The notes beneath the pieces were generated by a model, which made no database searches, was not told the DNA's origin, and saw only the letters and a list, made by a program, of their open reading frames with translations. From Octopus vulgaris (Eukaryota), in contig OX597816.1 of NCBI GenBank assembly GCA_951406725.2, positions 89,528,001 to 89,592,000 on the forward strand: a stretch of 64,000 nucleotides of DNA, read 5' to 3'. Positions within the stretch are counted from its first letter, which is position 1. Every line of letters begins with the position of its first letter. This document shows, piece after piece, positions 5,157 to 53,084 of the stretch. The translations under genes and the position numbers were made by a program.

Positions 5157-5903
5157 CAAATTGAGATAGGGGTTGTAAATGCAAATTGAGATAGGGGTTG
5201 TAAATGCAACCCTCCATGGGATACCATATATCCAATATACTGCCAGTGAAGTACCCAACAAAGTTAATACATAAATGTTAATGATTGCGATGCAATCAAT
5301 TCATTTACTGTATTATATGGGCAAAGGTAAAATGATTTACCACAAATTACTAATACAAGATAAGAAAATGGAGAAATACATCTAAATCAAATATCAATTA
5401 CCAGATAATACTCAATCACATACTTTATTAAACCACCACATAAGAGACTGTAGGGTTAAATATAAAAAGCAGAACAAATCAGTGTACATAAAGGAATGTA
5501 CATAAAAACGTGTACATAAAAGAGTAATGTTGTATGATAAGTAGAATATATATAAAAGAGAATATAAATATAAGTAAATATAAATATAAGTATAGATTAC
5601 ATCTTACAGCTGTTTCGGCCATGTAGATAAGTATGTCTCATTTTACCAATCTTAGCCGTAATCTATACTTATATTTATATTGACTTATATTTATATTCTC
5701 TTTTATATATATTCTACTTATTATACAACATTACTCTTTTATGTACACGTTTTTATGTACATTCCTTTATGTACACTGATTTGTTCTGCTTTTTATATTT
5801 AACCCTACAGTCTCTTATGTTGTGGTTTAATAAAGTATGTGATTGAGTATTATCTGGTAATTGATATTTGATTTAGAGGTATTTCTCCATTTTCTTATCT
5901 TGT
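5157..5903 (-). mobile_element. (TA)n-flanked fold-back element: 246-bp inverted arms around a half hammerhead
   Basis: Arms at 5355-5600 and 5658-5903 differ at about 4 positions. The loop on the minus strand reads GGCTA...TGGCC-GAAA-CAGCTG-TA-AGAT. A 25-bp direct repeat lies at 5157-5206. Confidence 0.85.
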
Positions 5904-6455
5904 GTGTATATATATATATATATATATATATATATATATATATATATATATATATGTATATATATATATATATATATATGTATATATATATATGATTTAA
6001 TAAAATTCTCCGTAAAATTAATAATGAATTCACATATCACAAAAAATATATAGACCTTACTGATGACATATAAAATCTAGCGACAAATATTCAAATTTCG
6101 GCGGAAATATCAGAGATCACATTGAGCCTGTGAAAACACATGCCAACATCACTTCATCCAGAAGATAAAACTTTGATGTTATAGAAACGTTGATGATGGA
6201 TTTATGAAATTTAATGCTAAAAAACACTTACTGGGAACTCGTACAAAAATTGAAGAAACCTTGATATACATGTTAAACTTACAGCGCCGTTCTGCATTGA
6301 AATTAACATGTTCAAACGAAAACCTGTTTCATATGAGCATAAACGCACATATATCCATACACACAGGGACAAAAATACATTTATGTATATATATATATAT
6401 ATATATATATATATATATATATATATATATATATATATATATATATATATATATA

Positions 6456-6957
6456 CCGTAAATCTTCGAGGATAATCCGCATTGTTTCCCAAAATGTAAA
6501 GGTCAAAATCCCTAGTGCGTGCTATATACGAGGTTAAAAATGAAAATAATTTTCTAAGCAATGTCCGAGTCTCTATTTGCAGTCCGGCAATGTATATTCA
6601 GACGCATATTCAGACGAAAATACCTTAAGCTAAGCCTGAAAGCAATGAAGTTATAAAAGAATCATCCATAACTTGCAGTAAGCAACATTTATAAAACGTT
6701 CTTACTTTTATTTTTTTATTTTTTGCAAACAAAATGCACAAAAAAGCAACATATTTCCATTATGTTATATATACAATAATAATAAAGGACGTTACCGTAC
6801 ACATTTTTACGAACCAAGGACGTTATATAGACCTCCTTGACTCAAGTTAGAGACGGGGTGCGTATAATACAAAAGGTTTAGGTTTTTCAGAGGTACAGTC
6901 CCCTAAAAGTCCCCTGCGTATTATACTCAACGGCGGACTATACTCGAGGATTTACGG
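6456..6957. mobile_element. pogo/Tc1-mariner-type MITE
   Basis: TIRs CCGTAAATCTTCGAGGATAATCCGC and GCGGACTATACTCGAGGATTTACGG (3 mismatches), TA on both sides, repeated subterminal GCGTATTATAC-like motifs. Confidence 0.85.
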
Positions 6958-9119
6958 TATACATTTATGTGTATATATATATATATATATATATATATAT
7001 ATATACAAATGCATATATATACAAATGTATATCTATACAAATGCATGTGTGTGTACGCATATATACATACGAAAATATGAAACCCTTAACTAAAATGAAA
7101 ACACTTTATTACATGTATCCGGTATATGTCTAAAAGAAAAACTGTACATATGCATACATATATATATATATGTATGTATGTATGTATGTATGTATGTATG
7201 TATGTATGTATGTATGTATGTATGTATGTATGTATATATATATATATATATGCATGTATGAATGTATGTATGTATACACACATATATATATAGTGAGAAT
7301 TTACAAAAAATCAAAAGACGAAGACGGGTGTGTAAACAACAAACATATGTATTACTTTAACGCCCACCACATATATATATGTATATATGTGGAGAGAGAA
7401 ACAGAGACAGAAACAGAAACAGAAAGACAGACAGCGATAAACCTATATGCATATATATATATGTGTGTGTGTGTGTGTATACATATATACATACGTATAC
7501 ACGCATATACGTATATATACATTAGTATACATGTGAACACATACATAATGTGTGTATGTGTATATGTGTGTATGTGTATGTGTGAAATTTTATGTGCGCG
7601 TTTGTGTATTTGTATGTGCGTGTGTATATGTATGTGTGTATGTGTATGTGTGTGTGGGTGTGTATGCGCTTGTACACCAAAAATGTGTGATTAAAAGTGA
7701 AAGTGAATATGTATTAAAGTGATCTGGTTTATATTATTTTTCCTATAGCGTCCTTTTCGTTTCGTCTTTTTTTATATATTTGTTATCTTTCGACATGGAA
7801 TCAGTGCTCGACTGAAGAAGTTCTGCTTGGCAAAACGCTCTTCTAATTGATTTTCTTTCTTTTAGTTTCTATTTCAACATAGTATATATTTAATTTCTAA
7901 AATACAAGAAGAGCGATTACAATTCAAATACCGAATCAAATTTCTTAACGTCTTCCACCTATCACGTTGCACAGTAACACATCAAAAAAATAAATACGTA
8001 ATTTATGATAGGCACTAGGGATATAATTGTTATTTCGACCTCATTCAGTTCTGCCTAGACAGCCAGCAGTTTAATATTCTTTTGTCTTTCTTATTATCTA
8101 CACTGTCCGATGAAAGTTCTCTTCAGATTGAATTTTTACAAAAGATAGGGAAGACATTATTAAGCTTTGTTTTATTAAACCTCGCCTTATAATGGCATTC
8201 AATGTTTGTTCGATTTCATGCACCGCAATGCTTCGTGAGAGATTGCACAAACCAATTTTCAAGACATAATGCATCTAGACAGAGTGAGTGTGAGAAAGTG
8301 TTTTCATGGATTCAGTTGGCTGATTGTTATTTTCATCTTTCAGAAAAATAATTGCAAATCGAGAAATTGCTCTCTGTCTGCCGTGAATGCTAAATTTCTA
8401 CTACAAGCCATTAACTGTGACATTTCTGTTTCTCATAAATAGAGGATTTTAGGTAATGAAACACAAAAATGACAGACTAGCGGGATTCTCAAAACACCAT
8501 TCTAATTCAAATATATTCAGTTATACTTCGATAACCAACAGTTTATTTATTATTTGGAAAAGATCTCATAAGATCGAAACATTATTAAAAATGTATATTT
8601 TAATAAAACTTTCGATTTATAAAGAAATGCATTCTTCCGGTCTTCAAATAACTGTTCAATGTATATTTGTGTGCGAATAAGTGTGTATGTGTGTCTGATG
8701 CATGTGTGTATGCAAGTAGTCTTGAAGACAAGATTATGTGCGATTTTAACTTTGGTACTTAAAAGAATTTTCACCATTCCTTATCAGTCTTTTATACTAA
8801 ATTTCCAACAAAGGTGACACTACCTAACTCCAGTAACGTGACATGACCTTTTTAGTGTCATCATCAGGCTCTGATGACAGTAATAGTGGCGTGATGTTGT
8901 TTAACGACTTCCCAATGGGTCGCAAAGTATCATGTTTGATACTTAAATATAAACACACTTATACACACATATACTGCTATCACCGAGAAAATCCTTTTCA
9001 CTGAATTTCAAATTATTAAACATGTCCCAGTAATATTCATACATTATGTTGTTTGAGTTTCATCTGTTCGTTGACTTCTCATTTATATTATGCTTAATTT
9101 TATAGTATGGTTTCTATTG

Positions 9120-9325
9120 TAAGCTGGCAGAATCTCTGATACACTGAGCAAAATGCTTAGCGGCATTTCGTCGGTCTTTACGTTTTGGGTTCAAATGCCG
9201 ACGGGGTTCGATTTTGCTTTTCATCATTTCTGGTTCGATAAGCACCAATAGAGCACTGGTGTCGATTTAATCCACTTAGCCCCTCCCCGAAATTGCTGGC
9301 CTTGTGCCAAAATCTGAAACCAATA
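9120..9325 (+). mobile_element. tRNA-derived SINE (GGCAGAAT...GGTTCAAAT...GGCCTTGTGCCAAAATCTGAAAC family)
   Basis: Box-B-like GGTTCAAATGCC. Homologous to copies at 13.0, 26.8, 29.4, 30.2, 42.6 and 59.4 kb. Confidence 0.75.
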
Positions 9326-9353
9326 TAACTTCCATTGCTAAACTTCTTATATA

Positions 9354-9517
9354 CAAGGGGATGCTGAAAGGTTTCTGGCTTTGAGTAAACGAAGATACAG
9401 GAGGACCAGTTAATTATGATTTTATTCAACATATTCCCCTCTTAGATTCACACACTTACTCCAGCGGTCCTTCAGTTCTTCTAAGCCCTTTCCTGATACC
9501 CTTAAAGCATCCCTTCG
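9354..9517. mobile_element. Short mariner-type MITE
   Basis: TA-CAAGGGGATGCTGAAAGG ... CCTTAAAGCATCCCTTCG-TA imperfect TIRs with TA flanks. Confidence 0.6.
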
Positions 9518-51858: not shown

Positions 51859-51893
51859 GTATGACGTTTCGAGCGGAGCTCTTCGTCGGAAAC
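51859..51893 (-). ncRNA. Minimal hammerhead (CUGACGA changed to CCGACGA) in element 51767-52062, same family as 24.5 kb
   Basis: Minus strand reads GTTT-CCGACGA-A-GAGC-tcc-GCTC-GAAA-CG-TC-ATAC. Confidence 0.75.
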
Positions 51894-52433
51894 ATAAAGA
51901 AGGAAGAGAGAGGAAAGAAAGATCCCGGAGCGGGCAACGGAGATAGAGAAAAAAACGACTGGTGTTAGGAGTTACACATGGTGAAAGGCGGATGTTTACG
52001 ATAACAAGAGCAAAGTGGGTTTTTAAAGGCAAAAGAGTGGAGACAAGGTTGGTAACGCAACAGATGTGTGTGTATGTGTGAGTGTGTGCGTGTGCGTGTG
52101 TGTATGTGTGTGTGTATATATATATACATATATTCATATATAAATACATATATATATATATATATATATATATGCATATATATATATATATATATATGCA
52201 TATATATATATATATATATATATATATATATATATATATATATATATATATATATATATACATAAACAAAGTTAAATGCGATACAATAAAATTAATTATA
52301 ATCGCCGGTGTACCAGTACACGCCATATATTATTCATATATAAATTACATTTAAAGCGAAGTGTGCACTAGATACACAAAAGCTGGATAAATTTAGTGAG
52401 ATGAAAATTAAAAACTTTTACAAACTTAGCTTT

Positions 52434-52506
52434 TCTTATACTGCAGTTTCGCCAAATTCAGTAATAAAAATAGTATTTATTTACTCAGGCTGGCTCTTCA
52501 GTAAGA
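52434..52506 (-). ncRNA. Intact minimal type I hammerhead ribozyme in ~335-bp (TA)n-flanked element 52261-52598
   Basis: Minus strand reads TCTTA-CTGAAGA-GCCA-(36 nt)-TGGC-GAAA-CTGCAG-TA-TAAGA: perfect stem I, G-C opened stem II, palindromic stem III, GUA site. Confidence 0.92.
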
Positions 52507-52781
52507 TTCCTGTTAATTATGGGAAGACCATATTAATAGACCCATGTGCGTCTACTGAAATGCTCTTTCTAAACTATTCAAAACACTGCACAGACTCATA
52601 TATATATATATATATATATATATATATATATATATATATATATATATATATATATATATGTATATATATATATATGTATATAGTCGATAGCCAATGGCGA
52701 AAGGAGATAATCCTCTTGCTTACATTTGTAACGGTGCCTTTCCCCTCCATATTTTGAAGAGGCCTTTGGCCAACAGGTTTT

Positions 52782-52842
52782 GAGGTCTGACGAAACGCCA
52801 TAAAGTTAAACCCTTTATGAACGGGAAACCCAGGGTAATCCC
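52782..52842 (+). ncRNA. Hammerhead ribozyme candidate in element 52678-52930
   Basis: GAGGT-CTGACGA-aacgc-CATAAAG-ttaaacc-CTTTATG-aacgg-GAAA-CCCaGGG-TA-ATCCC. Confidence 0.7.
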
Positions 52843-52952
52843 ATAAACCGGTCTTCCCCAGTAAAATATATATACCGCTCTACATCTTAGAGTGTGCTTC
52901 TTCTCCGGTTTTTATATTTTCTACAAGCGGTATATATATATATATATATATA

Positions 52953-53084
52953 TATAATGTACCATCTTAAAGAAGCGGAGATCTGATGTTGGCTATATAT
53001 AGAGAGAGATTTAATGTTGGTGATATATATACATATATATATTGCGAACATTAAATGTCCGCTTCATTAGGATGGTAGATTATA
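52953..53084. repeat. Diverged ~40-bp inverted repeat around a TA-rich spacer, each arm a hammerhead 5' half
   Basis: Arms 52953-52993 and 53044-53084. The right arm on the minus strand reads CCATC-CTAATGA-A-GCGGACAT-tta-ATGTTCGC. Confidence 0.7.

What the first reader, a model, noticed from the sequence alone, without database searches (positions are those of the whole stretch)
5157..53084. Diverse non-coding hammerhead-ribozyme mini-elements in (TA)n microsatellites (retrozyme-like satellites of Penelope elements)
Seen in the sequence: short (about 200-750 bp) ORF-less inserts bounded by (TA)n or related tracts, mostly unrelated in primary sequence. Each carries the same architecture: stem I-CUGANGA-stem II-GAAA-short, usually palindromic stem III-NUH-stem I'. 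Full motifs lie at 24243(+), 24581(-), 45739(+), 46951(-), 50373(-), 50894(+), 51859(-), 52434(-) and 52782(+). Partial motifs lie at 5601(-), 17.8 kb(-), 36344(-), 46428(+), 51.46 kb(-) and 53044(-). Stem III differs each time (CAGCTG, CAATTG, CTGCAG, CGCGCG, CCGG, CG, ATAT) yet stays self-complementary, so structure is conserved while sequence is not. Established knowledge: PLE terminal repeats carry minimal type I hammerheads with palindromic stem III that cleave as dimers, and non-LTR retrozymes are non-autonomous PLE-mobilised elements. Inference: this genome hosts many distinct families of such elements, mobilised by Neptune-type GIY-YIG PLEs like the one at 46.9-50.1 kb. Some may be 5'-truncated solo terminal repeats and not independent families.
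Basis: partly seen in the sequence, partly recalled or inferred. Interest (0 to 1): 0.9.

Follow-up and report, generated by a model that had tools for sequence, protein, structure and literature searches.

The report
Penelope ribozyme ends, including spliced copies
The short hammerhead-ribozyme motifs in these TA repeats are mostly broken-off ends of several Penelope-like jumping genes plus three small gene-less repeat families, and one family has many copies that lack its intron exactly, which suggests these elements copy their own spliced sense RNA and points to a likely reason why longer copies keep the intron.

Summary
The motifs are real: minimal type I hammerheads, about 25 times more frequent than in shuffled DNA and usually within 300 nt of (TA)n. 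Only 1 to 3 of the nine 'full' window copies are intact. They are not one new class. Of eleven families traced through the genome, six (46951, 51859, 17.8 kb, 52782, 5601, 36344) have copies joined to PLE ORFs of Neptune-, Hydra- and Poseidon-like types. One (24581) has a long form whose ORF was not reached. Three (52434, 24243, 50373/50894) are ORF-free, circularly permuted 400-525 bp units, i.e. known non-LTR retrozymes. The surprise is 45739. It is a copy of the spliced leader of a Hydra-clade PLE: 45 spliced against 8 unspliced junctions genome-wide, exact GT-AG loss, 5' ends at an initiator-like site, the same in two subfamilies, often in head-to-head palindromes. No spliced copy runs into upstream sequence; the unspliced copies that were read do. 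This favours a sense template over the published antisense idea and suggests cap-dependent splicing as the reason PLEs keep introns. 36344 is a PLE end with a tRNA-like head. No RNA evidence was obtained.

The parts
45703..45875 (+). Family E short form: 27-nt leader exon joined directly to the hammerhead exon (junction 45729/45730, core 45743-45749, predicted cut after 45778); copy of the spliced leader of a Hydra-clade PLE; ends at (TA)n
45670..45694 (-). Inverted 25-nt copy of the host flank left of the (TA)n, captured at the 5' junction of the E insertion
52265..52597 (-). Family I: 5'-truncated monomer of a 404-bp ORF-free tandem unit (non-LTR retrozyme) with an intact hammerhead at 52433-52507
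24038..24465 (+). Family C: copy of an approximately 525-bp ORF-free circularly permuted unit; core at 24247, stem I decayed in this copy
50121..51085 (.). Family G: head-to-head pair of an approximately 460-477-bp ORF-free unit; core 50900(+) nearly intact, minus-strand copy lacks one core base
46901..50056 (-). Family F: decayed Neptune-type PLE (RT, CX4CxxC linker, GIY-YIG; 63-90% identical by segment to a natural 784-aa open frame elsewhere); 3' hammerhead near 46948-46986 is U3:A8 in the family, damaged here; inverted tail at its 5' end
51767..52115 (-). Family D2: 5'-truncated end of a young 5.9-6.2-kb Neptune-type PLE; U4C core
24488..24681 (-). Family D1: approximately 200-bp copy starting near an initiator-like site; long form has a 900-nt CA-rich upstream arm, ORF not reached; GAAA mutated in this copy
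52683..52930 (+). Family J: truncated end of a PLE (endonuclease related to that of E); core 52787; second, 3'-broken copy at 51460-51592(-)
5157..5903 (-). Family A: PLE 3' end cut inside the hammerhead by an inversion (sense arm 5157-5660, inverted arm 5658-5903)
17726..18016 (.). Family B: head-to-head PLE ends; the family hammerhead has a G3:C8 core; the 5' half is lost at the inversion in this copy
36343..36529 (-). Family S: tRNA-like head (A and B boxes), (AAT)n, hammerhead core at 36375; 3' part missing; the cassette is the 3' end of a Poseidon-like PLE
20607..20736 (+).

Best explanation
These inserts are hammerhead-bearing terminal repeats (pLTRs) of several Penelope-like retrotransposon families, likely written into (TA)n by the elements' own endonuclease and reverse transcriptase from three kinds of sense RNA template. 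Shown: each family has one or two fixed 3' ends downstream of the ribozyme, variable 5' ends and frequent head-to-head inversions. Inferred, following the internal-initiation model of PMC11167929: the protein nicks AT-rich DNA and starts cDNA at the pLTR/ORF junction of an uncleaved RNA. (1) On read-through multimeric RNA it copies back into the 3' UTR and ORF and usually aborts, giving truncated ends (F, D2, B, J, A, some S and E). (2) On the element's ordinary mRNA it copies only the leader and runs off the RNA 5' end, giving short copies that start at the promoter; in family E these have lost the intron, in D1 they start near an initiator-like site, in S many start at a tRNA-like head. The cDNA end likely folds back, giving the palindromes. 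(3) On small ORF-free RNAs, likely circles made by dimer cleavage and ligation, it goes round more than once, giving tandem retrozyme arrays (I, G, C). The intron is likely spliced only when its first exon is next to the cap, so copies from read-through RNA would keep it.
For: ORF linkage: F 22 of 30 loci carry the family hammerhead behind the endonuclease; B 10 of 30; D2 two full tandem units with RT-EN; S tRNA-like head behind the endonuclease in 21 of 25; J and A 1 of 15 each. ORF-free units: I 64 exact motifs, 33 of them in 11 arrays at 404-405 bp; no PLE protein match of their own in 30 I, 16 C or 22 G loci, and upstream follows the unit round until it breaks. Splicing in E: the long form has the leader followed by GT, a 1,130-1,474-nt intron (6 measured) and a T-rich AG just before the hammerhead exon; short 19 and long 11 of 30 pattern loci; 45 spliced and 8 unspliced exact junctions genome-wide; with 3 more upstream bases required, 1 spliced and 7 unspliced, and that one spliced copy ends there; a second subfamily gives 11 spliced and 1 unspliced, and a linked marker tracks the subfamily in 16 of 16 and 27 of 28 short copies. 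The E tail runs on into the ORF start in L332. Inverted arms: 12 of 19 short, 0 of 11 long within 400 nt. D1: 26 of 30 start within -10 to +27 of the site.
Against: No RNA was seen; start site, cap, splicing, cleavage and circles are all inferred from DNA. Splicing was shown in one family only; an acceptor form of family I was sought and gave 0 matches. Many short E copies are paired arms of one insertion, so independent events are fewer than 45. J and A rest on one locus each, and the A junction may be a deletion. D1's ORF was not reached. S starts are spread: 9 of 30 at the head, 8 inside it, 11 scored after it, 2 ORF-linked; ARAGORN (0 of 7 loci) and Rfam do not call the head a tRNA. Family C showed no array with two whole ribozymes. 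Which PLE moves I, C and G is unknown.
Confidence: 0.78

Rival explanations
1. All the inserts are independent non-autonomous retrozyme families mobilised by a Neptune element.
For: Three families are ORF-free tandem units; intact Neptune open frames are abundant; 34 sequence clusters of hammerheads in the held loci.
Against: Six families have copies joined to PLE ORFs of at least three types; E has an intron-containing parent.
Confidence: 0.07
2. Everything is ordinary random 5' truncation of PLEs, and short E arose by one DNA deletion that was then amplified.
For: Truncation and inversion are known PLE traits (PMC8557442, passages); short E could re-amplify once formed.
Against: The loss is exact at GT and AG, occurs in two subfamilies with their own markers, and 5' ends stop at one site; I, G and C have no ORF and loop back on themselves.
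Confidence: 0.1
3. The arrays of I, G and C grow by local DNA duplication (minisatellite-like), not by reverse transcription of circles.
For: Units within arrays are closer than between arrays (1.1 against 4.8 differences per 235 nt), which duplication also gives; the Li et al. preprint proposes such local amplification.
Against: Arrays are short and dispersed, begin with a randomly truncated unit and end at a fixed point on (TA)n.
Confidence: 0.15
4. The hammerheads are passengers that rarely cleave and are not needed for insertion; this can hold together with the best explanation.
For: In vitro, ribozyme mutants did not affect insertion and cleavage needed the protein (PMC11167929); 1 of 9 Xenopus dimers cleaved (Li et al. 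preprint); 3' ends lie downstream of the cut site, so templates were uncleaved there or circular.
Against: Stems are kept while sequence changes across clusters, and the 3:8 pair is swapped but complementary in multi-copy families F (U:A) and B (G:C); the descriptor required complementarity, so this is not an independent covariation test.
Confidence: 0.3

Closest known systems
Minimal hammerheads in PLE terminal repeats (Cervera and de la Pena 2014, PMC4209133)
   Same: Type I, extra base after A9, palindromic stem III, many families per genome, mostly single truncated copies, close opposite-strand pairs, U3:A8 variant, intron end next to helix I in D. virilis Penelope.
   Different: Here spliced genomic copies outnumber unspliced ones in family E, and family B has a natural G3:C8 core (in PMC11167929 an engineered partial rescue).
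Metazoan non-LTR retrozymes (PMC7229834; Li et al. bioRxiv 10.64898/2026.07.22.740005)
   Same: Families I, G and C: ORF-free, AT-rich units of a few hundred bp with one type I hammerhead each, as monomers and short arrays.
   Different: They are inserted in (TA)n with PLE-style fixed ends and inversions; no parent PLE was found; only 3 of 11 families fit.
Poseidon of Anolis, internal initiation (Frangieh et al. 2024, PMC11167929)
   Same: Two fixed 3' ends per family (the tail), downstream of the ribozyme, at AT-rich targets; in E the tail runs into the ORF.
   Different: The in vitro work did not address splicing or promoter-start copies; in these families the fixed ends lie at short TA-like stretches of the element, whereas that paper reports no homology to the target.
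D. virilis Penelope promoter and intron (PMC2377424); antisense self-priming hypothesis (PMC3846280)
   Same: Initiator, short first exon, intron and then hammerhead inside the pLTR; head-to-head palindromes.
   Different: The intron here is 1.1-1.5 kb and is absent from most copies, which an antisense template would not give.
Hydra clade PLEs (PMC8557442 section 11)
   Same: E parent has DKT, a KWK match to RWK, CxCX5C linker, CxxC and CxH motifs, and targets (TA)n.
   Different: 3' region of about 3.8 kb makes the element longer than the under-3-kb families described.
tRNA-derived SINEs; schistosome Sm-alpha/Sj-alpha hammerhead SINE-like repeats (recalled, not read); octopus OR1/OR2/OK SINEs (seen only as a citation in PMC4758252)
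   Same: Family S: A and B boxes, short body, hammerhead, many copies starting at the head.
   Different: The tRNA-like head sits inside the 3' end of the autonomous PLE itself, about 30 nt after the stop codon; identity with OR/OK was not tested.

Membership tests
Minimal type I hammerhead (PLE type) | Core with paired 3:8, GAAA, NUH and stems I-III | tested here: met
   Family-level motifs; Rfam Hammerhead_1 at 21.2 bits, below gathering; most window copies decayed
Minimal type I hammerhead (PLE type) | Palindromic stem III allowing a dimer | tested here: met
   Palindromes in most clusters; dimer fold of 52433-52507 pairs the two stem III segments; G and J are only near-palindromic
Minimal type I hammerhead (PLE type) | Self-cleavage | not testable with these tools
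   needs in vitro assay
Non-LTR retrozyme | ORF-free unit of about 150-1000 bp with one hammerhead | tested here: met
   I, C, G; not met by F, D2, B, J, A, S, E long
Non-LTR retrozyme | [quoted passage not shown] | tested here: met
   I: 11 arrays; G: one adjacent pair of exact motifs; C: partial tandems only, so not met for C in the loci seen
Non-LTR retrozyme | Unit-length linear and circular RNA | not tested
   no reads were laid
EN+ Penelope-like element | RT plus C-terminal GIY-YIG in the parent | tested here: met
   Pfam RVT_1 and GIY-YIG on F and D2 parents (only RVT_1 of F passes the cut-off); B and E parents gave no such Pfam hit and rest on motifs
EN+ Penelope-like element | Tandem or inverted pLTRs and optional tail | tested here: met
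Neptune clade as sole mobiliser | CX2-5CxxC linker in every parent | tested here: not met
   present in F, D2, B; E and A parents have CxCX5C (Hydra), S parent has none; no tree was built
Processed (spliced) retrocopy, family E short | Exact loss of a GT-AG intron present in the parent | tested here: met
Processed (spliced) retrocopy, family E short | 5' end at the transcription start, cap-derived G | tested here: inconclusive
   ends cluster at or just inside an initiator-like site; the extra G can come from the fold-back arm; start site not measured
tRNA-derived SINE, family S | Pol III A and B boxes and no T4 run in the unit | tested here: met
   boxes seen directly (box consensus recalled); no T4 in a 255-nt natural copy
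tRNA-derived SINE, family S | Recognisable tRNA fold | tested here: inconclusive
   ARAGORN 0 of 7 loci, Rfam none on one copy; relaxed ARAGORN was swamped by noise
tRNA-derived SINE, family S | Copies begin at the head independently of the parent | tested here: inconclusive
   9 of 30 at the head, 2 of 30 ORF-linked, the rest shorter

The most novel reading that the evidence does not exclude
PLEs retrotranspose the leader of their own capped, spliced sense mRNA as a routine product, and keep introns only because long copies come from read-through RNA in which the first exon is far from the cap and is not spliced. Family E records this in the genome, rules against the antisense-template model for head-to-head palindromes, and shows one way non-autonomous hammerhead minis are born; family S adds a PLE whose terminal repeat carries a Pol III cassette and sheds SINE-like copies.
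Probability: 0.55. Interest if true: 0.8.

Novelty: new variant of a known kind. Interest (0 to 1): 0.62.

Why it matters
Hammerheads in PLE ends and animal retrozymes as PLE derivatives are published, so the finding as written is mostly known. Why PLEs retain introns, and whether their template is sense or antisense, has stayed open (PMC8557442 calls the significance unknown; PMC3846280 proposes an antisense template). Family E gives a natural, countable test: spliced copies stop at the promoter, intron-keeping copies run through it. It links the in vitro internal-initiation result to genomic products and predicts simple RNA experiments. The genome also offers many natural ribozyme variants (roughly 30 intact motifs per Mb by extrapolation), including U3:A8 and G3:C8 cores, and a tRNA-headed PLE end.

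Tried and rejected
Whole-window Rfam search: the 150 listed of 342 matches were microsatellite-driven miRNA/snoRNA noise, none at gathering score; the other 192 were not shown. Reading the short form of E as loss of the whole ORF: rejected, the intron lies downstream of the ORF. Cap-derived extra G in E: dropped, fold-back arms explain it. Splice-acceptor form of family I: 0 matches. 53044: single copy, not a family. First S start-site census was spoiled by an inverted arm in the reference and redone. First labels 'Poseidon' for E, A and J were corrected to Hydra-like. Sequencing runs: no RNA holder listed on record; no reads were laid, so expression is open. Earlier scan notes: nothing. 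Literature searches that found no report of spliced genomic PLE copies, of a tRNA-headed PLE end, or of these ribozymes in octopus: (open-access library only; subscription papers, Repbase reports and supplements were not seen and may bear on novelty). No phylogenetic tree or covariance model was built.

Full report
Setting. The window is G000:C3:89528001-89592000 in a 2.8-Gb genome of 227 contigs, 34% GC and full of microsatellites. By recall its repeats look like those of an octopus; this was not tested.

2. What each family is. F (46.9-50.1 kb) is a decayed Neptune-type PLE. Relatives with open 784-aa frames are common, form 4.4-kb tandems, and 22 of 30 loci carry a U3:A8 hammerhead behind the endonuclease. 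D2 (51859) ends a young 5.9-6.2-kb Neptune-type element; 17 of the 40 best hits, the window included, are 100% identical. B (17.8 kb) is joined to an endonuclease in 10 of 30 loci and has a G3:C8 core. J (52782, 51.46 kb) and A (5601) are each joined to an endonuclease in 1 of 15 loci. S (36344) follows a Poseidon-like endonuclease: a tRNA-like head lies about 30 nt after the stop in 21 of 25 loci, then (AAT)n, then the ribozyme. There are 814 exact copies of its ribozyme; of 30 read, 9 start at the head, 8 inside it, 11 were scored after it, 2 reach the ORF and 17 have an inverted arm. S is mostly not in (TA)n. D1 (24581; 545 exact copies) starts within -10 to +27 of an initiator-like site in 26 of 30 loci; 2 run 900 nt upstream without reaching an ORF.

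I (52434), C (24243) and G (50373/50894) differ. Upstream of the ribozyme they follow their own unit round until it breaks, with periods of 404, about 525 and 460-477 bp, and none of 30, 16 and 22 loci has a PLE protein match of its own (the 30 I loci overlap and cover fewer sites). For I, 33 of 64 exact motifs lie in 11 arrays of 2-5 units; units differ by 1.1 within and 4.8 between arrays per 235 nt. These are non-LTR retrozymes as defined in PMC7229834 (passages read) and in the Li et al. preprint (parts 1-3 of 5 read).

3. Family E. The 45739 insert has two forms sharing the ribozyme exon: 19 short and 11 long among 30 pattern loci. The long form belongs to a PLE with Hydra-clade motifs. 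Behind its ORF lie about 2.4 kb of 3' region, an initiator-like site, a short exon ending before GT, an intron of 1,130-1,474 nt (6 measured) ending in a T-rich AG, the ribozyme exon and an 80-nt tail that in L332 runs into the ORF start. The short form is that exon joined exactly to the ribozyme exon. Genome-wide there are 45 spliced and 8 unspliced exact junctions. Requiring three more upstream bases leaves 1 spliced and 7 unspliced; the 7 continue at least 110 nt upstream and the spliced one folds back at once. A second subfamily gives 11 spliced and 1 unspliced, and a marker downstream tracks the subfamily in 16 of 16 and 27 of 28 short copies and occurs in both states among long ones. So the loss happened at least twice. 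Twelve of 19 short copies have an inverted arm within 400 nt, 0 of 11 long. Paired arms inflate the counts.

4. Mechanism. Shown: fixed 3' ends downstream of the ribozyme, often two per family, variable 5' ends, inversions, ORF linkage or its absence, exact intron loss. Established: PLE protein cuts AT-rich DNA and starts cDNA at two internal sites near the pLTR/ORF junction on unprocessed RNA (PMC11167929, parts 1-2 of 4 read); the Penelope pLTR holds the promoter and an intron (PMC2377424, passages) whose end abuts helix I (PMC4209133, parts 1-2 of 4). Inferred: starting there on an ordinary mRNA can copy only the leader, giving short E, probably D1 and perhaps S. Starting there on a read-through RNA copies into the ORF. 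Starting on a small circle gives arrays. Because spliced copies never reach upstream of the start site while unspliced ones do, splicing likely needs the nearby cap; that would explain intron retention without the antisense template proposed in PMC3846280 (discussion read). Head-to-head palindromes on spliced copies show that a sense template can give them, likely by fold-back of the cDNA end. The fixed ends fall at short TA-like stretches of each element, which may help pairing with the target; this is untested and differs from the Anolis result.

5. Comparison and novelty. Minimal hammerheads in PLEs, their abundance as solo truncated copies, the U3:A8 core, (TA)n targeting and retrozymes as PLE derivatives are all published (PMC4209133; PMC8557442, passages and section 11; Li et al.). 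Nine searches of the open library showed no report of spliced genomic PLE leader copies or of a tRNA-like head inside a PLE end; closed literature and supplements were not seen. PMC6962438 (passages) lists 235 Hammerhead_1 loci in a squid without analysis; PMC4758252 (passages) only cites octopus SINEs. Schistosome hammerhead SINE-like repeats are recalled, not read.

6. Verdict. The finding as written is a new set of members of known kinds, with its 'separate system' claim true for 3 of 11 families. The spliced-leader copies make it a new variant that bears on an open mechanistic question. There is no RNA or cleavage evidence, one family carries the splicing claim, and clade calls rest on motifs. 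Interest 0.62; the bolder reading has probability 0.55 and would merit 0.8.

Noticed in passing
L161 (G000:C9:10669500-10679400), L160, L162: Young Neptune-type family with an upstream frame of about 390-450 aa overlapping a 784-aa RT-EN frame in another phase, in 4.4-kb head-to-tail tandems; many copies score identically.
   Followed up: partly
window 45593-45694; L095 2499-3200: At two E insertions the 5' junction holds an inverted copy of host flank next to the (TA)n, suggesting template switching onto target DNA.
   Followed up: partly
window 30795-31434 (-): Fragment of a second Neptune-like ORF, 48-53% identical to the F relative.
   Followed up: no
window 18372-19016 (+): 215-aa open frame with weak C2H2 zinc-finger hits, probably the end of a LINE (recall), lying between TA tracts.
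   Followed up: no
window 46369-46456: 88-bp palindrome with a GAAA / palindromic stem III / NUH half on each arm; no second copy in the held loci.
   Followed up: partly
window 52957-53100: Two diverged inverted arms with a broken core-like heptamer; single copy by DNA search.
   Followed up: partly
L044 2235-2525; L186 near 9826-9881: Sister families of E, also short and head-to-head, with AG a few bases before helix I; possibly spliced leaders of other Hydra-clade PLEs; parents not sought.
   Followed up: no
L173, L044, L198: Further small families with U3:A8 cores besides F.
   Followed up: no
window 51085-52956; L009, L015, L282: Different families stack in the same TA tract, since each insertion leaves new (TA)n flanks; five inserts lie within 2 kb here.
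   Followed up: partly
window 35270-35525 and 37339-37594: 256-bp direct repeat at 96% identity, not examined.
   Followed up: no
window 57493-57570: Another short palindromic remnant of family B.
   Followed up: no
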